This document shows positions 14,425-35,606 of a stretch of 64,000 nucleotides of DNA, in pieces. This DNA comes from an uncultured Chloroflexia bacterium (GTDB lineage Bacteria; Chloroflexota; Anaerolineae; Anaerolineales; UBA11858). Under the pieces are notes generated by a model, which saw only the letters and a program-made list of their open reading frames with translations, did not search any database and was not told the DNA's origin. The position numbers and the translations under genes were made by a program. The first letter of the stretch is position 1. Every line of letters begins with the position of its first letter. The stretch spans positions 134,611-198,610 of the forward strand of contig CAVQGY010000002.1 in the NCBI GenBank assembly GCA_963712165.1. The letters run 5' to 3'.

Positions 14425-14985
14425 ATGTCCGCCCGAACAGAAAAAGAGAAAATGCTGGCAAGCGAGGTTTATAACTGCCTTGATCCAGATCTGAAGCGGT
14501 TCCGCCAGGTAGTGAAAACAAAACTCAGAGTATATAATGAGTCGGATGAGGAAGATGACCGGCGTTCTCTGCTGGAGGATCTACTGGGGAATATTGGTGA
14601 AAACCTCATCATCTGGCCCCCATTCAACTGCATATACGGCGAAAATATCTACATCGGGAACAATGTTTTCCTCAATTTGAACTGCATGATCATTGATAAT
14701 AACCGGGTTGAGATCGGGGATCATGCCATGGTTGGGCCCGGGGTCCAGATCTACACTGCTGCCCATCCGCTGGATGCAGAGTCGCGCAAGCTGGGCTGGG
14801 AGGTGGCCAAACCGGTCACGATCGGGAACAGCGTCTGGATCGGGGGCAGCGCCATCCTCCTTCCCGGGGTGAAGATCGGAGAGCGATCGGTTGTGGGTGC
14901 TGGCGCGGTGGTGACCAAGGATGTACTGCCAGGGGTCGTCGTTGCCGGAAATCCAGCCCGGATCATTCGTGAGATTGAAGGATAA
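14425..14985 (+). CDS. Maltose/galactoside O-acetyltransferase-type hexapeptide-repeat acyltransferase
   Basis: 186 aa. It has the Mac-type N-terminus (MLASEVYNCLDPDL) and left-handed beta-helix repeats ending GNPARIIREI. Confidence 0.85.
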   Translation: MSARTEKEKMLASEVYNCLDPDLKRFRQVVKTKLRVYNESDEEDDRRSLLEDLLGNIGENLIIWPPFNCIYGENIYIGNNVFLNLNCMIIDNNRVEIGDHAMVGPGVQIYTAAHPLDAESRKLGWEVAKPVTIGNSVWIGGSAILLPGVKIGERSVVGAGAVVTKDVLPGVVVAGNPARIIREIEG

Positions 14986-15076
14986 CCTGGAGCAAAGCTT
15001 GAAACAATGGAAATTTTGATCTGGATGAATATGACATAAACGTCCCCCCGGATAGGGATCAATTCTAGCGAGAGGC

Positions 15077-15105
15077 TTGACAAAAACCCACCACCCATAT
15101 AGACT
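15077..15105 (+). promoter_or_regulatory. Candidate sigma-70 promoter of the metG leader
   Basis: TTGACA (15077-15082), a 17-nt spacer, then TAGACT (15100-15105). Confidence 0.45.
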
Positions 15106-15132
15106 TAGGGAAAGTTTTAGAAAGGAAAAAAT

Positions 15133-15153
15133 ATGTACCTGATCAGTGTGTGA
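15133..15153 (+). CDS. Mini-ORF MYLISV, possible entry ORF for the leader peptide
   Basis: AAAGGA lies 6 nt upstream of the ATG. Its TGA stop overlaps the leader ATG (gtgTGATGatg). Confidence 0.25.
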   Translation: MYLISV

Positions 15154-15242
15154 TGATGGCTGTGATGATGATGGTCATGCGGATGGGCCGCAAGAGCCCA
15201 CCCCCTCGCCTGGCAGCCGTGCGTGTTAAAAAAGATCACTGA
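15153..15242 (+). CDS. Met-rich leader peptide MMAVMMMVMRMGRKSPPPRLAAVRVKKDH
   Basis: This 29-codon ORF has 7 ATG codons in its first 11. It lies between the candidate promoter and the terminator that precedes metG. Confidence 0.5.
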   Translation: MMAVMMMVMRMGRKSPPPRLAAVRVKKDH

Positions 15243-15263
15243 AACACGAACTTCGAACTATCC

Positions 15264-15290
15264 GAGCTGTCCAGATGGACAGCTCTTTTT
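15264..15290 (+). terminator. Intrinsic terminator (candidate attenuator) immediately upstream of metG
   Basis: A 9-bp stem, GAGCTGTCC/GGACAGCTC, with a 4-nt loop is followed by TTTTTATTT. It lies 27 nt before the metG ATG. Confidence 0.75.
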
Positions 15291-15316
15291 ATTTACTATT
15301 CAAATTGGAGCGAATC

Positions 15317-17098
15317 ATGAGCAAGAACATCCTCGTCGCCGTAGCCTGGCCTTACGCCTCAGCTGATATCCATGTGGGCAATATGACCGGATCTTATTTG
15401 CCGGCTGATATCTATGCCCGCTTCCACCGCTTACAAGGGAATAAGGTATTAATGGTATCTGGATCGGATTCCCACGGCACGCCGATCACTGTCCGGGCTG
15501 ATCAGGAAAATAAATCGCCGGAAGAAGTCTATCAGGAGTACCATACCAGGTTCCTGGGTCTATTTCAAAAATCAGGGTTAAGCTATGACCTGTACACCAG
15601 CACTCACACACAGAATCATTTTAAGGTTGCCCAGACCATGTTCAGCGCGCTTAAAGAAAAGGGCTACCTTTATGCGGAAACCCAGAAACAGTGGTATTCA
15701 ACTACTCAGGAACGGTTCCTGCCCGACCGCTACGTGGAAGGCACCTGTTATATCTGCGGTTATGAAAACGCCCGGGGGGACCAGTGCGACCAATGCGGTA
15801 ATCTTTTAGAAGCTAATGGCTTGATCAATCCCCGCTCCAAGATGGATGGTTCAACCCCGGAGCTGCGGGAGACAGAGCACTTTTACCTCGATCTGAGTGC
15901 CCTTCAATCTCAGATAGTTGAGTTCCTTAAAGACCGGGAGGATTACTGGCGGCCCAATGTGCTGCGTCAATCCCTGGGTCAGATCCTGGCTCAAGACCTG
16001 CACGGCCGGGCTATCACCCGGGACCTTCAGTGGGGCATTCCTGTACCCGTTCCCGGGTGGGAGGAAAAACGCCTCTACGTCTGGTTCGAGGCCGTTATCG
16101 GTTATCTTTCGGCCGCGATTGAATGGGCTGCCCTGACCGGAGAGGAAGAAAGCTGGAAAGATTGGTGGTACAACCCGGAAGCCCGGGCCTATTACTTCAT
16201 CGGCAAGGATAATATCCCATTCCACGCTGTGATCTGGCCGGCTGAACTGGCCGGTGTGGGCAGCACTTTCGGCGCCTTTTTCGACGAGGATGACTCACGC
16301 GAACTGGTTCTGCCTTATGACGTACCCGCTAATGAGTTCCTCAATATGGAGGGCCAAAAGATTTCCGGCAGCCGTAATTGGGTGGTGGATGCCCTTGATT
16401 TCCTATCCCGCTACGATCCAGATCCCCTGCGCTACTATCTGACCGCCAACATGCCTGAGACCCGTGATACAGATTGGGAGTGGAGTGAATTTGTCACCCG
16501 GAATAACAACGAACTGGTCGCAACCTGGGGCAATCTAGTAAATCGAGTGCTTTCATTCGCGCATAGGACTTGGGACGGGAAAATACCTGATCCCGGGGAT
16601 CTGAGGCCGGAAGACGAAGAGATCATCAAGGTAGTCGAAACTGGATTTGAGACGGTCGCTGATCTCTATGACAGGGTAAAATTGCGGGCAGCCCTGACCG
16701 AGACCATGCGCCTGGCCAGTGAGGTCAATAAATACCTCGATGGAAAAGCTCCCTGGTTTGAGATCAAGGAAGATCAGGACAGCGCCGCAAAATCCGTTTA
16801 CACCGCCATTCGGGCCATCGATTCACTTAAGATCCTCTTTTCTCCCGTTCTGCCATTCACCTGCGAGCAGCTTCACCAAATCTTGGGCTACGACAAGCCT
16901 CTCTTTGGAGAACAATATACCGAAGAGATTGAGGATAACTTGGGGACACATACCGTGCTGCGCTACCGCGCTGGGGAGGTCTGCTGCGATTGGCGCCCGA
17001 GCGAGATCAAAGCTGGACAAGAGTTCAATCAACCGACTCCGTTATTCAAGAAACTGGATCCGGAAGTTGCGGAACAGGAGCTGGAACGGATGGGTTAA
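15317..17098 (+). CDS. metG: Methionine--tRNA ligase
   Basis: HIGH-type motif ADIHVGN, zinc knuckles CYICGYENARGDQCDQCG and KMSKS-type KISGSRN are present. I place the start at 15317 (GGAG 7 nt upstream). The ORF-track ATG at 15275 lies inside the terminator hairpin. Confidence 0.95.
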   Translation: MSKNILVAVAWPYASADIHVGNMTGSYLPADIYARFHRLQGNKVLMVSGSDSHGTPITVRADQENKSPEEVYQEYHTRFLGLFQKSGLSYDLYTSTHTQNHFKVAQTMFSALKEKGYLYAETQKQWYSTTQERFLPDRYVEGTCYICGYENARGDQCDQCGNLLEANGLINPRSKMDGSTPELRETEHFYLDLSALQSQIVEFLKDREDYWRPNVLRQSLGQILAQDLHGRAITRDLQWGIPVPVPGWEEKRLYVWFEAVIGYLSAAIEWAALTGEEESWKDWWYNPEARAYYFIGKDNIPFHAVIWPAELAGVGSTFGAFFDEDDSRELVLPYDVPANEFLNMEGQKISGSRNWVVDALDFLSRYDPDPLRYYLTANMPETRDTDWEWSEFVTRNNNELVATWGNLVNRVLSFAHRTWDGKIPDPGDLRPEDEEIIKVVETGFETVADLYDRVKLRAALTETMRLASEVNKYLDGKAPWFEIKEDQDSAAKSVYTAIRAIDSLKILFSPVLPFTCEQLHQILGYDKPLFGEQYTEEIEDNLGTHTVLRYRAGEVCCDWRPSEIKAGQEFNQPTPLFKKLDPEVAEQELERMG

Positions 17099-17167: not shown

Positions 17168-17739
17168 AAACAAGCTCCCGGCTAAAACCGGGAGCTTGTT
17201 TCAACCCAAGGCGCCCTAAAGGGCGCTTTCTATTTCTATGGAAGTTCCCACTGGTTGCTGAGAGGTCCTAATTGATGGTGTTCTTTTTGATTGATTATGT
17301 ACTTGATTAATCCAGGAAGATCCCGTTTTGAGACCGAAAACGCTCCATAACCTCCCTGCCAGCGAAATCCCAATTCAGGCCTGATCTGATTAGCAATGAC
17401 AAATGAAGTATATCCTTTTACTTCACCCACAATCACTGATACGCTAGCTGATGGATGAAGTTTGAAAAGTAGATGGACATGATCACCTGTGCAACCAAAA
17501 GCAAGTAACTCGGATTTAGCAGTCAATAATCTTTCCCGGATCATACTATCCAAGAATTTTTCGATTTCATTATCTATCCACTGATATCTTTTATAGGTTG
17601 TCCACACAATGTGAAAGTACAACTGAAGATAGGATGATCCCATTGATAACCCCCTTATCTGATACTTCCATCATACAAAAAACCAAGCCCCTCTTCCAGG
17701 GGGGCTTGGTTCGAATTAGCCCGCGGATTCATTCGCGGG
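17168..17739 (-). mobile_element. IS200-like (Y1 transposase) unit, copy 1, with sub-terminal hairpins
   Basis: tnpA is flanked downstream by hairpins at 17168-17201 (14-bp stem) and 17211-17226. Upstream hairpins lie at 17681-17711 and 17720-17739. The same four-hairpin architecture recurs at 19227-19781. Confidence 0.6.
17236..17643 (-). CDS. IS200/IS605-family Y1 (HUH) transposase-like protein
   Basis: 135 aa with HUH motif DHVHLLF, tyrosine motif WQGGYGAFSV and C-terminal KYIINQKEHH. Confidence 0.85.
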   Translation of the reverse strand: MGSSYLQLYFHIVWTTYKRYQWIDNEIEKFLDSMIRERLLTAKSELLAFGCTGDHVHLLFKLHPSASVSVIVGEVKGYTSFVIANQIRPELGFRWQGGYGAFSVSKRDLPGLIKYIINQKEHHQLGPLSNQWELP

Positions 17740-32271: not shown

Positions 32272-35200
32272 CTAAAAACCTTCTAGCCTGGTCATATCCA
32301 GGACTCCCTCAGCTAGTCCGGATATTTCCTGCAGCAATCCGAGGCGGTTCTCCCGGGTCTTCTGGTCCTCATCCATAACCAGCACGTTATCAAAGAAATC
32401 CGTGATCAGAGGAACCAGGGGTGTAAAGATCGCAAAAAATCCTTCCAGGTCACCGGGAGTTATCTTGGACTGGCGAGCTTTTGTTAAGCTCTCACCCAAA
32501 TCCGCCTCTGCTTTTTCAATGAATCTGGCCGGATCAACCGAATATCTTTTTTCAAGATCCCTGGTAATCCTCACACAGCGGGCAAACGAATCCAGTGTGA
32601 GATCCCAGTCATCCTTTTTAACCCATTCAGCGAGGGATTTTACCGCCCGAAAAGCGCTGGCTGGGTTATACCCTTGTGCACTCACTATCGCATCAACCAC
32701 ATCATAGGCATACCCTTCATCTCGAAGGTAGTTATGCAATCGGTCCTGGATGAATCCCAAGCAGTCCTCTCTGGTTTCTGGAGAGAAATCGATGGGCAGG
32801 TTGAGAGCCGCGGCGTCCAGCGCCGAGGACAGGTCCAGATCCAGATCCCAATGAATGAGATTACCCACCAAACCCAGTGCCGCTCGGCGTTGAGCAAAAG
32901 GATCTTTGCTGCCTGTGGGTGCCAGGCCGGCAGCGAATAATCCTGCCAGGGAATCCAGGCGGTCAGCCAAACCCACGACCAGTCCGGGCAGGGTCGATGG
33001 CGCCGGGTCATTCGCGGAAGAGGGCAGATACTGTTCCCGGATAGCCAGGGCAACAGATTCTTGTTCACCTGAACTTCGGGCATAATAATATCCCATTACT
33101 CCCTGGAGAGAAGTCATTTCAACTACCATCTGGGTAGCCAGATCTGCTTTGGATAGTTCAGCTGCCCGGCGGCTGGTCTCCAGATCTCCCTCTGCCAGGC
33201 CAACCAGGTCAGCGAGTTTATCCACTAGACCCCGCACACGTTTGGTTTTATCACCCATCGATCCCAGGTCAACCTGGAAGGTGAGGGTATCAAGAGCTGG
33301 CAGGTAATCCGCCAGGGGTTTTTCACGATCAGCTTTCACGAAGTATTTCGCATCTGCGAAGCGAGCCAGGATGACATCCGTGTTACCTTGCGTGATCAGG
33401 GGCAGCTGGGGATATTTACCTTCCGGGGATGGTTTATTGGCAATGGTAATAAAATAAGGAAGCAGCGCTCCATCCTTCTCGACCGGGAAATAGCGCTGAT
33501 GCTTTTTCATCACCGAGATCAATACCTCCCGGGGAAGGTCCAGGAAAGCGGGATCAAACTCACCCAGCAGCGCAGTAGGAGCTTCCACCAGGTGGGTCAC
33601 TTCTTCCAATAAGGCTGGATCCTCGGGCACCTCACCACCAACCTTCCCGGCAAGGTGCTGGACATCTTTGAGAATCCTTTGGCGGCGTATATCCTGGTCC
33701 AGGAGGATCCCTTGTTTATCCAGGATCTTAAAGTAATCCTTCGGGGAGGAAACCTCAATATCAGCTCCGTTATCAATGAAGCGCAGGCCTCGTGTATACG
33801 GTCCGGCTTTTAAACCAGCATAGGTGAACGGGATCCAGGAACCCCCATGCAGCGCCAGCAACCAGCGAATGGGTCGTGAAAAGGCCAACTTGGGATCATT
33901 CCAGCGCATGGATTGCCCAAAACGGACAGACCCTATCAAATCCGAAAGCGCACCCATCAAAACCTCATGGGCAGGCAATCCGGCTTTACGTTCCACGGCA
34001 ACCACATATTCTCCGCCGTCAATTTCCTTGACTTCCAGGTCCTCCAGGGATACTCCCTTGGATTTCGCAAAGCCTTCAGCAGCCTTGGTGGGCTGGCCGC
34101 CTTCATCAAAAGCCCTTTCCCGGGGAGGTCCCTTCACCAGCTGCTCGAGATCCTCTTGCTGATGGGCTAATCCGTCCAGGGATAATACCAGCCGGCGGGG
34201 GGTGGCCATCACCCTCAGATTCTCATAAGACAGACGCAGATCAGAGAACATGGCCGGGGCTGCCTGTGTTAGCTGGCGGATCGCATCCTCTACATCCCCC
34301 GAAGGTAATTCCTCAGTGCCGATCTCCAATAAGAAATGCGACGGTGTAGTGGGAGCTTTTCCGGTCGATGCTCCTGTGGTTTTGGCAGCGGCGTCATCTC
34401 CGCTCCCCAGCCAGGGATATTCTAGTTCCATGCGCTCATCCAGATAGGCCTCCGCGACCTGCTTGGAAAGGTCCCGCATGCGGTGGAAGAAACCTGCCCG
34501 TTCAGTCACACCTACAGCACCGCGCGTGTCCAATAGGTTAAAGGTGTGGGAACACTTAAGCACAAAATCATGAGCTGGAAGGGTTTGCTTCATTTCCAGG
34601 CAGCGGAGAGCCTCGCTCTCATAGATTCTGTATAACTCCCGCATATGATCAACATCTGCCAGCTCAAAGGCATATTTACTGAACTGCTGTTCACTTTGCA
34701 GCTGGACATCCCCGTATTTGATATCCTTGGACCAGCGGATATCCTTAAAATCTCGTACTCCTTGCAGCGCCATCGCAATCCGTTCCAATCCGTAGGTGAG
34801 CTCCACAGAAACCGGATCCAACGCCTGGCCTCCGGACTGCTGGAAATAGGTGAATTGAGTGATTTCCAGGCCATTGAGCCAAACTTCCCAGCCCAGCCCC
34901 CAGGCACCCAGAGCGGGGGATTTCCAGTTATCCTCCACAAACCGGATGTCATGTTCAACCGGGTCTATGCCCATAGCTTCCAGGGATCTTAAATACAGCT
35001 CCTGGGGATTGCCAGGATCCGGTTTAAGGATGACCTGGTATTGTGTGTGTTGATAAAAGCGGTTGGGATTTTCACCGTACCGTCCGTCATCCGGCCGGAT
35101 GGAGGGTTCCACGTAGCCAACATTCCAGGGCTCTGGACCCAGTACTCGCAGGGAGGTGGCCGGGTTCATCGTCCCGGCACCGACCTCAGTGTGATAAGGA

Positions 35201-35280
35201 TGCCAGATCAGGCAGCCATTATCCGCCCAGAATTTTTCCAGGGCCATAATGAGAGATTGGAAATCCAGCGCTTCTGTCAT
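32272..35280 (-). CDS. glyQS: Glycine--tRNA ligase, fused alpha-beta (GlyQS) polypeptide
   Basis: This 1002-aa single ORF has a GlyQ-like N-terminus ([24 protein letters not shown]...[12 protein letters not shown]). It continues without a stop into a GlyS-like beta part. Confidence 0.95.
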
Positions 35281-35330
35281 AAATACTCCTGCCTTAGAAG
35301 TGAAACCTCAAACAAAATACTCATCACGAA

Positions 35331-35339
35331 ATTATAACA
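35331..35339 (-). promoter_or_regulatory. Candidate extended -10 (TGTTATAAT) for glyQS
   Basis: A TGnTATAAT match on the minus strand lies about 50 nt upstream of the glyQS ATG, implying only a short leader. Confidence 0.4.
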
Positions 35340-35431
35340 TGGGGGTAATCTCAGTTTATGGGAGAGACAGAGTGACATTTAGACCGGGAGATGAGGAAAA
35401 TTGGATACATCATTCAGTATTCCAATCAATC

Positions 35432-35456
35432 GTAGGGGCGACCTGCCAGGTCGCCC
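35432..35456. repeat. GTAGGGGCGACC...GGTCGCCC hairpin repeat
   Basis: An 8-bp stem, GGGCGACC/GGTCGCCC, has loop TGCCA. A related longer copy lies at 43059-43106. It is followed by a GTCATTGCGAGGA-type element (35463-35505). Confidence 0.7.
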
Positions 35457-35606
35457 GATCATGTCATTGCGAGGAATCGATCAGAGGATTGTGACGCAAT
35501 AATCCCATGGTCTCCCGGTCACAGAGTCCCCACTTCCCCTGACTTAATGTATAATGCCTAACTCAGCAATTATTAACCTAACCATTTATAGAAAAGTGAG
35601 TTTAAC

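What the first reader, a model, noticed from the sequence alone, without database searches (positions are those of the whole stretch)
15077..15316. Met-codon-rich leader peptide plus intrinsic terminator in front of metG: candidate Met-tRNA-sensing transcription attenuator
The sequence shows the following, in order:
- A TTGACA-17-TAGACT promoter lies at 15077-15105.
- A 6-codon mini-ORF (15133-15153) has its stop overlapping the next ATG.
- A 29-codon ORF (15153-15242) begins MMAVMMMVMRM, which is 7 ATG in the first 11 codons.
- A textbook terminator follows at 15264-15290: a 9-bp GC-rich stem, a 4-nt loop and TTTTTATTT.
- The real metG start is at 15317.

Alternative pairings are available:
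- CTGGCAGC (15210-15217) can pair with the terminator left arm (15266-15274; 8 bp with one bulge). This would act as an antiterminator.
- ATGGCTG inside the Met run (15156-15162) can pair with CAGCCGT (15214-15220).

This is the logic of leader-peptide attenuation, as in trpL or the Phe-rich pheM leader of E. coli pheST. Here it would report charged tRNA-Met, the direct product of MetRS. No T-box sequence is present. I am not aware of a described Met-rich leader controlling metG.
Basis: partly seen in the sequence, partly recalled or inferred. Interest (0 to 1): 0.8.

Follow-up and report, generated by a model that had tools for sequence, protein, structure and literature searches.

The report
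Methionine-codon leader attenuator upstream of metG
In front of the methionyl-tRNA synthetase gene lies a short reading frame packed with methionine codons, followed by a transcription terminator. The arrangement is conserved across a whole class of Chloroflexota, and it most likely lets stalled ribosomes switch the gene on when charged methionine-tRNA runs low.

Summary
In order, the sequence has:
- a promoter (15077-15105);
- a mini-ORF (15133-15153);
- an overlapping ORF with 7 ATG in its first 11 codons (15153-15242);
- a 9-bp terminator (15264-15285 plus T-run);
- metG at 15317.

Of 80 Anaerolineae metG loci, 59-64 carry a short ORF upstream of metG with an in-frame ATG-NNN-ATG core (up to 8 Met codons). 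That ORF has a stop 16-40 nt before an intrinsic terminator and a segment complementary to the terminator's 5' arm. Twelve metagenomic loci show the same. The surrounding sequence has diverged into at least six groups while this logic is kept.

The evidence that the ATGs are read as codons:
- ATGs fall in the leader frame 276 times, against 18 and 13 in the other frames.
- In 28 leaders the ORF's ATG sits 6-9 nt after the -10 box, so these look leaderless.

Folding the nascent window RNA with a ribosome placed on the Met codons gives the antiterminator. Without a ribosome the terminator forms.

Rfam has no match, and I found no published Met leader or metG attenuator.

Verdict: a well-supported, apparently undescribed member of the classical leader-peptide attenuators. 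Function has not been tested experimentally.

The parts
15077..15105 (+). Sigma-70-type promoter TTGACA-17-TAGACT. The inferred transcription start is near 15112.
   Evidence: 10/12 match. The identical TTGACA-17-TAGACT is present in all 16 group-A leaders and in the metagenomic relatives.
15122..15126 (+). Shine-Dalgarno AAGGA for the leader ORF start at 15133.
   Evidence: Relatives have AAGGAA or GAGAGGA 5-8 nt before their leader start codon.
15133..15153 (+). Mini-ORF MYLISV*. It is the remnant of the N-terminus of the ancestral leader ORF, cut off by a 2-nt (TG) insertion at 15146-15152. Its UGA overlaps AUG 15153.
   Evidence: Relatives have one continuous ORF. That ribosomes restart at 15153 is inferred.
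15153..15242 (+). Leader ORF with 7 Met codons in its first 11 codons. The conserved regulatory core is AUG-GUC-AUG at 15171-15179. The stop codon is UGA at 15240-15242.
   Evidence: The ATG-NNN-ATG core is conserved in frame in 59-64 of 80 loci.
15171..15175 (+). Segment 1 (AUGGU). It pairs with 15216-15220 to give the anti-antiterminator 1:2. In this window AUGGCUG at 15156-15162 can also pair with 15214-15220.
   Evidence: 100% of cells are paired in 14 sequences, and only one-sided changes that keep the pair occur. One search gives the energies.
15184..15200 (+). Hairpin P2 (UGGGC-CGCAAGA-GCCCA), between the Met codons and segment 2. It may act as an RNA polymerase pause hairpin or as an extension of 1:2.
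   Evidence: 87.5% paired, one compensatory pair. An equivalent hairpin with different sequences and compensatory changes is seen in groups B-D. The pausing role is inferred.
15209..15220 (+). Segment 2 (CCUGGCAGCCGU). Its 5' part pairs with the terminator's 5' arm to form the antiterminator. Its 3' part pairs with segment 1.
   Evidence: CUGGCAGCC is nearly invariant in group A.
15222..15248 (+). Small hairpin CGUGUU/AACACG with the leader stop codon in its loop.
   Evidence: Predicted. It is not consistently conserved in group A. An analogous stop-containing hairpin was seen by eye in group B sequences.
15264..15294 (+). Intrinsic terminator (segments 3 and 4). The stem is 15264-15272/15277-15285, the loop is AGAT, and the T-run is 15286-15294. 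Only 22 nt separate it from the metG start codon.
   Evidence: (-15.9 kcal/mol; 100% paired in 16 sequences).
15307..17098 (+). The regulated gene: the metG Shine-Dalgarno (GGAG, 15307-15310) and coding sequence (15317-17098, 593 aa).
   Evidence: (tRNA-synt_1g at E=2e-143, plus the MetRS anticodon-binding domain).

Best explanation
This is a ribosome-mediated (leader-peptide) transcription attenuator that sets metG transcription according to how easily ribosomes read AUG codons, that is, according to the supply of Met-tRNA(Met), the product of MetRS.

Transcription starts at the promoter at 15077-15105. A ribosome then translates the leader ORF.

- Met-tRNA plentiful: the ribosome runs through the Met codons and over segment 2 (15209-15220) to the stop at 15240. 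Segment 2 is covered, or re-pairs with segment 1 behind the ribosome. The terminator (15264-15285 plus U-run) forms and most transcripts end about 25 nt before metG.
- Met-tRNA scarce: the ribosome stalls on the Met codons (15153-15185) and covers segment 1. Segment 2 is left free to pair with the terminator's 5' arm as it emerges. The terminator cannot form and RNA polymerase reads into metG.
- No translation: segment 2 is held by upstream sequence and the terminator forms.

What is shown: the sequence elements, their conservation, the reading frame, and the alternative pairings. What is inferred: the stalling, the coupling to RNA polymerase, and the regulatory response.
For: 1. Conservation linked to metG.
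- 59 of 94 terminator-like hairpins within 600 nt upstream of metG have a Met-cluster ORF in the right geometry. Elsewhere in the same loci the figure is 57 of 1252.
- 59-64 of 80 loci are positive.
- 12 of 17 metagenome pattern hits are the same leader directly before metG.

2. The ATGs are read as codons.
- ATG counts are 276 in the leader frame, against 18 and 13 in the other frames.
- The first stop in the Met frame lies 0-60 nt before the terminator in 63 of 66 leaders, against 17 and 25 in the other frames.
- The middle codon of the core varies (GTC, GCC, GGC, TCC, GAC, CCC, CGA and others) while the two ATGs do not.
- Extra in-frame Met codons come and go, giving 2 to 8 per leader.

3. 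Start signals.
- Groups A and B have Shine-Dalgarno-led starts.
- In 28 of 65 leaders, including all 22 of groups D and E, the ATG lies 6-9 nt after a strong -10 box. This implies leaderless translation.

4. Alternative structures.
- Group A: 1:2 is 100% paired, the antiterminator 91.7% and the terminator 100%.
- Group E uses a different antiterminator sequence (GGGACAGACG with CGUCUGUCCC). It is 77% paired against 33-47% when slid, with 4 compensatory pairs, and 0 of 500 shuffles reach that pairing level.
- Groups B-D keep a Met-proximal helix and hairpin P2 through compensatory changes.

5. Folding of the window RNA.
- Nascent RNA to 15276 with a ribosome footprint on the Met codons folds into the antiterminator (15210-17 with 15266-74).
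- Without a ribosome, segment 2 pairs upstream.

6. Promoter layout.
- Only 22 nt separate the terminator T-run from the metG ATG, and no other promoter-like site was found. metG expression must therefore pass through this terminator.

7. No Rfam family matches.
Against: - No transcript, ribosome or reporter data exist for these uncultured organisms.
- At equilibrium the full-length RNA always prefers the terminator (-15.9 against -14.0 kcal/mol). Read-through therefore depends on co-transcriptional kinetics. This is normal for attenuators but untested here.
- In the window's own clade the paired segments are almost invariant, so covariation there is weak.
- The swap test of leader bodies against other groups' terminator arms was specific only for groups A and E.
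- In this window the Met run is out of frame with the Shine-Dalgarno-led start. Its translation needs a restart at the UGAUG overlap, or the extra TG is an assembly error.
- Translating the leader also needs charged initiator tRNA, which MetRS supplies. Severe MetRS shortage could therefore give no leader translation and hence termination.
- About 20% of the related loci lack the leader.
Confidence: 0.8

Rival explanations
1. The short ORF is an independent small-protein gene, possibly for a membrane micro-protein, with its own promoter and terminator. metG is then expressed by constitutive leak-through, and the Met codons are simply part of a hydrophobic peptide.
For: - In the window's clade and in L014 the part of the peptide before the Met core is about 20 mostly hydrophobic residues followed by basic residues. 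This looks like a transmembrane helix.
- The C-terminal ...ILAA(V/I)R(V/L)KK(E/D)R is fairly conserved at the peptide level within that clade.
Against: - The hydrophobic segment is absent in groups B-F, whose peptides share only M-x-M.
- The conserved LAA codons are exactly the antiterminator strand CUGGCAGCC.
- In the window and in L016 the frame to the N-terminal segment is broken, yet the Met core and the RNA elements are intact.
- No Pfam family matches.
- The element is always tied to metG, with no room for a second promoter in group A.
Confidence: 0.06
2. An RNA-only sensor in which the ORF is incidental. Candidates are a riboswitch-like aptamer (for SAM, methionine or another ligand), a T-box-like tRNA(Met) binder using AUG as specifier, or a tRNA-mimic operator bound by MetRS for autoregulation.
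For: - Groups B-D fold into multi-helix structures. These comprise a long-range helix P1, hairpin P2 and a further hairpin that I saw by eye, with compensatory changes in P1 and P2.
- AUGGYCAUGCG is conserved at the nucleotide level.
- AUG is the codon that would pair with the tRNA(Met) anticodon.
Against: - No Rfam hit appears even at E<=10, and none in 19 related loci.
- Outside the helices, the only invariant bases across groups are the two in-frame ATGs.
- UGG after the first AUG (the potential NCCA partner) and CAU (the anticodon mimic) are both lost in several groups, for example AUGCGAAUG.
- An RNA-only model does not explain the frame bias of ATGs, the fixed position of the in-frame stop, or the start codon placed at the transcription start.
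Confidence: 0.06
3. A nascent-peptide arrest element. On this view the conserved M-x-M-R peptide stalls the ribosome in response to some other signal, such as a small molecule or an antibiotic, and not in response to Met-tRNA supply.
For: - Arg (CGN) follows the second Met in most groups.
- Short arrest motifs are known from memory in other leader peptides, such as those of erm genes.
Against: - The residue between the Mets, and in some loci the one after them, varies freely: R, C, P, Y, S.
- The number of Met codons expands to 5-8 in some clades, which fits codon counting better than a fixed arrest motif.
- The CG after AUG takes part in the conserved 1:2 helix in groups C and D.
- The regulated gene is the enzyme that charges tRNA(Met).
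Confidence: 0.04
4. Chance or a neutral feature: an (ATG)n microsatellite that happens to lie between the upstream gene's terminator and metG.
For: - GATGATGATG is a simple repeat prone to slippage.
- The window shows a TG-repeat indel nearby.
Against: - 7 ATG in 11 codons was never reached in 200 resamples.
- The arrangement is conserved in about 75 loci with different upstream genes.
- A strong conserved promoter lies between the upstream gene and the ORF.
Confidence: 0.01

Closest known systems
Classical leader-peptide attenuators of amino-acid operons (E. coli trpL, hisL, pheL, thrL, leuL, ilvL; Rfam His/Leu/Thr/Trp leader families)
   Same: Both have a promoter, then a short ORF with a run of codons for one amino acid. 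Both have mutually exclusive 1:2, 2:3 and 3:4 pairings that end in an intrinsic terminator just before the regulated gene. The antiterminator is weaker than the terminator, so control would be kinetic.
   Different: - The sensed codon is AUG (Met), for which I found no described leader.
- The target is a tRNA synthetase, not a biosynthetic operon.
- The host is Chloroflexota.
- There is no sequence or Rfam similarity.
- The leader stop codon lies about 20 nt beyond segment 2, not before it.
- Many family members appear to be leaderless.
pheM leader of E. coli pheST (attenuation control of phenylalanyl-tRNA synthetase; cited from established knowledge)
   Same: A leader peptide rich in the cognate amino acid controls the gene for the synthetase that charges that amino acid's tRNA. 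The enzyme's own product is therefore what is sensed.
   Different: The amino acid, the phylum and the sequences all differ. pheM is experimentally proven, whereas this element is only predicted.
Predicted classical attenuators upstream of trpS and leuS in Streptomyces (PMC1262725) and the His leader upstream of hisS/hisZ paralogues in bacilli (PMC2965389)
   Same: These are comparative-genomics predictions of leader-peptide attenuation of aminoacyl-tRNA synthetase genes outside Proteobacteria.
   Different: The amino acids and the phyla differ. Neither paper mentions metG or methionine leaders.
Polycysteine leaderless short ORFs of mycobacteria (bioRxiv 10.1101/834739)
   Same: A sensory short ORF starts at the 5' end of a leaderless mRNA. 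Ribosomes pausing on a run of one codon remodel downstream RNA structure. This compares with groups D and E here.
   Different: The mycobacterial ORFs control translation by unmasking a ribosome-binding site, and they sense cysteine. The element here has a canonical intrinsic terminator, which implies transcriptional control.
T-box leaders with a Met (AUG) specifier (established knowledge; T-boxes occur in Chloroflexi, PMC3766115 and PMC2494555)
   Same: The physiological logic is the same: low tRNA(Met) charging leads to antitermination upstream of Met-related genes. Both end in a terminator with an alternative antiterminator.
   Different: A T-box binds uncharged tRNA directly and needs no translation. 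No T-box sequence or structure is present here, and the sensor is an ORF.

Membership tests
Ribosome-mediated (leader-peptide) transcription attenuator | A short ORF with a plausible translation start lies between the promoter and the regulated gene. | tested here: met
   - Window: Shine-Dalgarno AAGGA plus ATG 15133, with a UGAUG overlap into the Met ORF.
- Relatives: continuous ORFs of 20-40 codons that are either Shine-Dalgarno-led or start 6-9 nt after the -10 box.
Ribosome-mediated (leader-peptide) transcription attenuator | The ORF carries a cluster of codons for the amino acid related to the regulated gene, and the cluster is conserved in frame. | tested here: met
   - Window: 7 ATG in 11 codons.
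- An ATG-NNN-ATG core occurs in 59-64 of 80 loci.
- The frame bias of ATGs is 276/18/13.
Ribosome-mediated (leader-peptide) transcription attenuator | An intrinsic terminator lies between the leader ORF and the gene. | tested here: met
   - Window: 15264-15294, -15.9 kcal/mol.
- It is conserved, with 99-100% of cells paired.
- The leader stop lies a median of 26 nt before the stem.
Ribosome-mediated (leader-peptide) transcription attenuator | An antiterminator pairing exists that is mutually exclusive with the terminator. | tested here: met
   - Window: 15210-17 pairs with 15266-74.
- Group A: 91.7% paired.
- Group E: 77% paired, with 4 compensatory pairs, against 33-47% when slid.
- The swap test was inconclusive for groups B, C, D and F.
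Ribosome-mediated (leader-peptide) transcription attenuator | An anti-antiterminator (1:2) overlaps the regulatory codons, so that a stalled ribosome frees segment 2. | tested here: met
   - AUGGY (15171-75) pairs with RCCRU (15216-20), 100% paired in group A.
- A Met-proximal helix is seen in groups B-D.
- Masked folding of the window RNA behaves as expected.
Ribosome-mediated (leader-peptide) transcription attenuator | Read-through responds to the supply of the cognate charged tRNA. | not testable with these tools
   This needs Term-seq, reporter assays or a coupled in vitro system. All the organisms are uncultured MAGs.
T-box riboswitch (RF00230) | Stem I with a specifier loop, and the conserved T-box sequence in the antiterminator bulge. 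| tested here: not met
   - No Rfam match even at E<=10 in 14800-15600.
- No match in the whole window or in 19 related loci.
- The UGGN that could pair with NCCA is not conserved across groups.
Known Rfam leader and riboswitch families (His, Leu, Thr and Trp leaders, Leu/phe leader, SAM riboswitches) | A match to the family covariance model. | tested here: not met
   Searches returned only tRNA hits and two chance-level matches (E=1.7).

The most novel reading that the evidence does not exclude
This would be the first methionine-specific leader-peptide attenuator family. It would be ancestral to much of the class Anaerolineae and would control MetRS itself.

The family has diversified into Shine-Dalgarno-led and leaderless versions, and into simple and three-way-junction versions. 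Because its leader ORF needs both initiator and elongator Met-tRNA, it may read out the balance between the two products of MetRS rather than methionine supply alone.
Probability: 0.55. Interest if true: 0.7.

Novelty: new member of a known kind. Interest (0 to 1): 0.62.

Why it matters
Leader-peptide attenuation is a textbook mechanism. Its documented range, however, is mostly Proteobacteria and Actinobacteria with a few Firmicutes, and it covers amino acids such as Trp, His, Phe, Leu, Thr, Ile/Val and Cys.

A methionine version is of interest for three reasons:
- AUG is a single codon that is shared with initiation.
- It is charged by the very enzyme being regulated.
- I found no Met leader or metG attenuator in the searchable literature.

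If real, the finding would do several things:
- It would give the first cis-regulatory mechanism for metG in Chloroflexota.
- It would extend ribosome-mediated attenuation to a poorly studied phylum where T-boxes were thought to do this job.
- It would provide about 75 natural variants (2-8 Met codons; leaderless versus Shine-Dalgarno-led) for studying how attenuators evolve.
- It would correct the annotation of short 'hypothetical' ORFs or unannotated intergenic regions in hundreds of Anaerolineae MAGs.

Tried and rejected
- T-box, riboswitch or known leader family: rejected. Rfam scans at a permissive threshold over the region, at gathering threshold over the window, and over 19 related loci including those without the leader gave nothing.
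- A MetRS-binding tRNA mimic or T-box-like NCCA pairing based on CAU/UGG in AUGGYCAUG: rejected. Several groups have AUGCGAAUG, AUGUCCAUG and similar cores.
- His-rich ORF on the minus strand (15117-15239): this is simply the reverse complement of the ATG run (CAT). It has no downstream gene in that orientation.
- A second copy or a Met regulon in the window: the geometry scan, the general scan for leader-type codon runs and the covariance model R1 found only the metG leader.
- One covariance model for the whole family: the group-A model recovered only group A, plus L014 weakly at E=0.012. The groups are therefore too diverged for one sequence/structure model, and I could not show formally that they share common descent rather than having converged.
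- Swap test of antiterminator specificity: informative for groups A and E only.
- Equilibrium folding with ribosome masks always keeps the terminator. Only nascent-chain folding shows the switch.
- An exact-match metagenome search for the window's own leader found nothing. I could therefore not check whether the extra TG is real or an assembly error.
- Lopatovskaya et al. 2010, a survey of attenuation of aminoacyl-tRNA synthetase operons, is not in the library. Prior mention of metG there cannot be excluded.
- glyQS (32272-35280, minus strand) has no comparable leader.
Full report
**Observation.** The region reads exactly as described.
- A TTGACA-17-TAGACT promoter lies at 15077-15105. It is the only + strand promoter-like site in 5 kb.
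- An AAGGA Shine-Dalgarno lies at 15122-15126.
- A 6-codon ORF runs from ATG 15133 to UGA 15151-15153.
- ATG 15153 overlaps that stop and opens MMAVMMMVMRMGRKSPPPRLAAVRVKKDH*, which stops at 15240-15242.
- A 9-bp, 4-nt-loop hairpin at 15264-15285 is followed by TTTTTATTT.
- metG has GGAG at 15307-15310 and ATG at 15317. It is a bona fide class I MetRS (Pfam tRNA-synt_1g, E=2e-143).

Seven in-frame ATGs in 11 codons was never reached in 200 Markov resamples of the window. The maximum there was 5, in 2 of 200 resamples. Only 22 nt separate the T-run from the metG start, so metG has no room for a promoter of its own behind the terminator.

**Origin and comparative set.** MetG-based retrieval from one genome per GTDB species gave 80 loci. 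All are uncultured Anaerolineae or Chloroflexota MAGs, with MetG identity of 89% down to 52%. Reading their upstream regions showed the same layout in most of them:
- a promoter;
- a short ORF with an in-frame ATG-NNN-ATG core, usually followed by CGN;
- a hairpin;
- a stretch complementary to the terminator's 5' arm;
- the ORF's stop codon;
- an intrinsic terminator.

**Quantification.**
- A Met cluster whose frame stops 0-70 nt before a terminator-like hairpin is present upstream of metG in 59-64 of 80 loci.
- Among terminator-like hairpins within 600 nt upstream of metG, 59 of 94 have this geometry. Elsewhere in the same loci the figure is 57 of 1252.
- ATG triplets in the leader regions fall in the leader frame 276 times, against 18 and 13 in the other two frames.
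- The first stop in the Met frame lies 0-60 nt before the terminator in 63 of 66 leaders, against 17 and 25 for the other frames.
- A degenerate pattern for the window's type found 17 metagenome contigs. Twelve are the same leader directly upstream of metG with 5-8 Met codons, and five are chance matches inside unrelated genes.

These counts are not phylogenetically independent. Even so, the sequences fall into at least six groups whose peptides share nothing but M-x-M.

**Start signals.**
- The window's clade (group A) keeps an identical TTGACA-17-TAGACT promoter and a Shine-Dalgarno-led start 23-30 nt downstream.
- In all 22 members of groups D and E, and in L040 and L014 (28 of 65 leaders in total), the leader ATG sits 6-9 nt (mostly 7) after a strong TATACT/TACACT -10 box. 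The leader ORF would then begin at the 5' end of a leaderless mRNA.

This fixed geometry is hard to explain unless the ORF is translated.

**The window's two-ORF layout.** Close relatives have one continuous ORF, for example L001 MFYFTLVIMMALMMMVMRKGRVSPSSILAAVRVKKER and L081 VFLICILMMAVMMMVMRMGRLSPPLKLAAVPLKKGR. In the window the Shine-Dalgarno-led ATG 15133 is out of frame with the Met run by two bases, which lie in the GTGTGTG run at 15146-15152. Removing one TG gives a single 35-codon ORF. The mini-ORF is therefore a derived state or an assembly error. The UGAUG overlap would still allow ribosomes to restart; this is inferred. L016 shows a similar frame break with the RNA elements intact.

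**Structure in the window's clade (16 sequences).**
- AUGGY of the conserved core (window 15171-15175) pairs with RCCRU (15216-15220) in 100% of cells. Only pair-preserving one-sided changes occur.
- The P2 hairpin (15184-15200) is 87.5% paired.
- The terminator is 100% paired.
- The antiterminator, CCUGGCAGCC (15209-15218) with the terminator's 5' arm, is 91.7% paired, against 17-45% when slid.

Most of these columns are invariant, so covariation there is weak.

**Structure in the other groups.**
- Group E uses a different antiterminator, GGGACAGACG with CGUCUGUCCC. Individual loci change both strands together (L061, L066, L067). It is 77% paired against 33-47% when slid, four pairs show double changes, and no shuffle reaches the observed pairing. 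Its terminator is 99% paired.
- Group B folds into a long-range helix (CUGCCG/CGGCAG) enclosing hairpin P2.
- Groups C and D fold into a long hairpin whose base includes AUG-CGC.
- Both of these have compensatory changes.

**Tests that were weak or negative.** A swap test of leader bodies against other groups' terminator arms was specific only for groups A and E. A covariance model of group A recovers only group A and, weakly, L014.

**Folding of the window RNA.** The full-length RNA at equilibrium keeps the terminator wherever a ribosome footprint is placed. The terminator is -15.9 kcal/mol and the antiterminator duplex -14.0 kcal/mol, as in classical attenuators where the decision is kinetic. 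Nascent RNA ending at 15276 has the 5' arm out and the 3' arm not yet made. With a ribosome on the Met codons it folds with 15210-15217 paired to 15266-15274.

**Mechanism (inferred).**
- A ribosome stalled for lack of Met-tRNA(Met) on 15153-15185 covers segment 1 and leaves segment 2 free to capture the terminator's 5' arm. RNA polymerase then reads into metG.
- A ribosome that runs on to the stop at 15240 passes over segment 2 and then sits between it and the terminator. The terminator forms.
- With no translation, segment 2 is held upstream and the terminator forms.

The sensed quantity is the product of the regulated enzyme, as in pheM-pheST.

**Rivals.**
- A stand-alone small membrane protein is suggested by the hydrophobic N-terminal half of the peptide in group A and L014. 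That feature is absent in the other groups and the frame is broken in the window. In addition, the conserved LAA codons are the antiterminator strand itself.
- An RNA-only sensor (riboswitch, T-box-like, or MetRS operator) is suggested by the multi-helix folds of groups B-D. It does not explain the frame statistics, the stop position or the start-codon geometry. No Rfam family matches. Neither UGG nor CAU is conserved across groups.
- A peptide-arrest element is possible but fits the variable number of Met codons poorly.
- Chance is excluded by the conservation.

**Comparison with what is known.** The element meets every sequence-level criterion of a classical leader-peptide attenuator. Only the physiological response is untested.
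- The closest analogue in logic is E. coli pheM-pheST.
- Predicted attenuators exist for trpS and leuS in Streptomyces (PMC1262725) and for hisS in bacilli (PMC2965389).
- The leaderless variants recall the polycysteine sORFs of mycobacteria, which act on translation rather than termination (10.1101/834739).
- Six full-text searches found no Met leader peptide or metG attenuator.
- One relevant survey (Lopatovskaya et al. 2010) could not be read.

**Verdict.** This is a new member (Met/metG, Chloroflexota) of a known kind of regulator, conserved across a bacterial class, with leaderless and multi-helix variants. My confidence in the mechanism is about 0.8 and the interest score is 0.62.

Noticed in passing
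window 15146-15152 (GTGTGTG): Two extra bases (one TG unit) put the Shine-Dalgarno-led start at ATG 15133 out of frame with the Met run. This creates the mini-ORF and the UGAUG overlap. All close relatives have one continuous ORF. The cause is either real repeat slippage or an assembly indel.
   Followed up: partly
L048, L050, L053, L056, L057-L076, L040, L014 (about 6-9 nt downstream of the -10 box, upstream of metG): In 28 of 65 leaders the leader ORF's ATG lies 6-9 nt after a strong TATACT/TACACT -10 box. These attenuator ORFs would be translated from leaderless mRNAs. Many begin MNT.../MN...
   Followed up: partly
L026, L028, L030, L034, L035 (group B); L041, L047, L048, L050, L056 (groups C and D), between the Met codons and the terminator: The sequence just after the Met codons (GCUGCCG, or GAGCCG) is complementary to a stretch immediately upstream of the terminator (CGGCAGC, or CGGCUC). 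This closes a three-way junction that competes with the local long hairpin. The role of this second alternative pairing is unclear.
   Followed up: partly
Leader peptides of group A (window relatives L001-L010, L015, L081-L096) and L014: The part of the peptide before the Met core is about 20 mostly hydrophobic residues (I, L, V, F, M) of variable sequence, followed by a basic tail. It looks like a transmembrane helix. It could also reflect decayed Met codons, since AUN, GUG, CUG and UUG are one mutation from AUG. Other groups lack it.
   Followed up: partly
window 15117-15239, minus strand: A His-rich antisense ORF (…HPHDHHHHSHHH…). It is the mirror image of the ATG run (CAT = His). No gene lies downstream in that orientation, so it is almost certainly meaningless.
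   Followed up: yes
L017-L020, L052, L060, L063, L071, L073, L077-L080: About a fifth of the related metG loci have no Met leader and no T-box. In the five that were looked at (L017, L020, L071, L073, L078) a promoter lies close to metG. L068 keeps the terminator and antiterminator-like sequence but has only one AUG, so it may be a decaying copy.
   Followed up: partly
L005 and L016 (both from MAG MFD09964.bin.2.149): One MAG carries two metG loci, each 87% identical to the query and each with the leader. L016 has a frame break. This may be a strain mixture in the bin or a real duplication.
   Followed up: no
window 17174-17229 and 17236-17643 (minus strand): Downstream of metG lie two adjacent terminator-like hairpins, 17174-17195 (called on both strands) and 17208-17229 (+ strand). 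They are followed by an IS200-like Y1 transposase gene on the opposite strand (Pfam Y1_Tnp, E=1.6e-24).
   Followed up: no
window 32272-35280 (minus strand) and its upstream region 35281-35600: A fused glycyl-tRNA synthetase alpha/beta gene (1002 aa, named from reading the translation). A TATAAT box lies about 50 nt upstream. It has no T-box, no terminator and no Gly-rich leader, so the Met leader is not part of a general leader-peptide scheme for synthetase genes in this window.
   Followed up: partly
L060 (labelled Pleurocapsa sp.) and L062 (labelled Oceanobacillus sp.): Two loci have MetG typical of Anaerolineae, and L062 also has a typical group-E Met leader. Both sit in MAGs named as a cyanobacterium and a Firmicute, so the contigs are probably mis-binned.
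   Followed up: no
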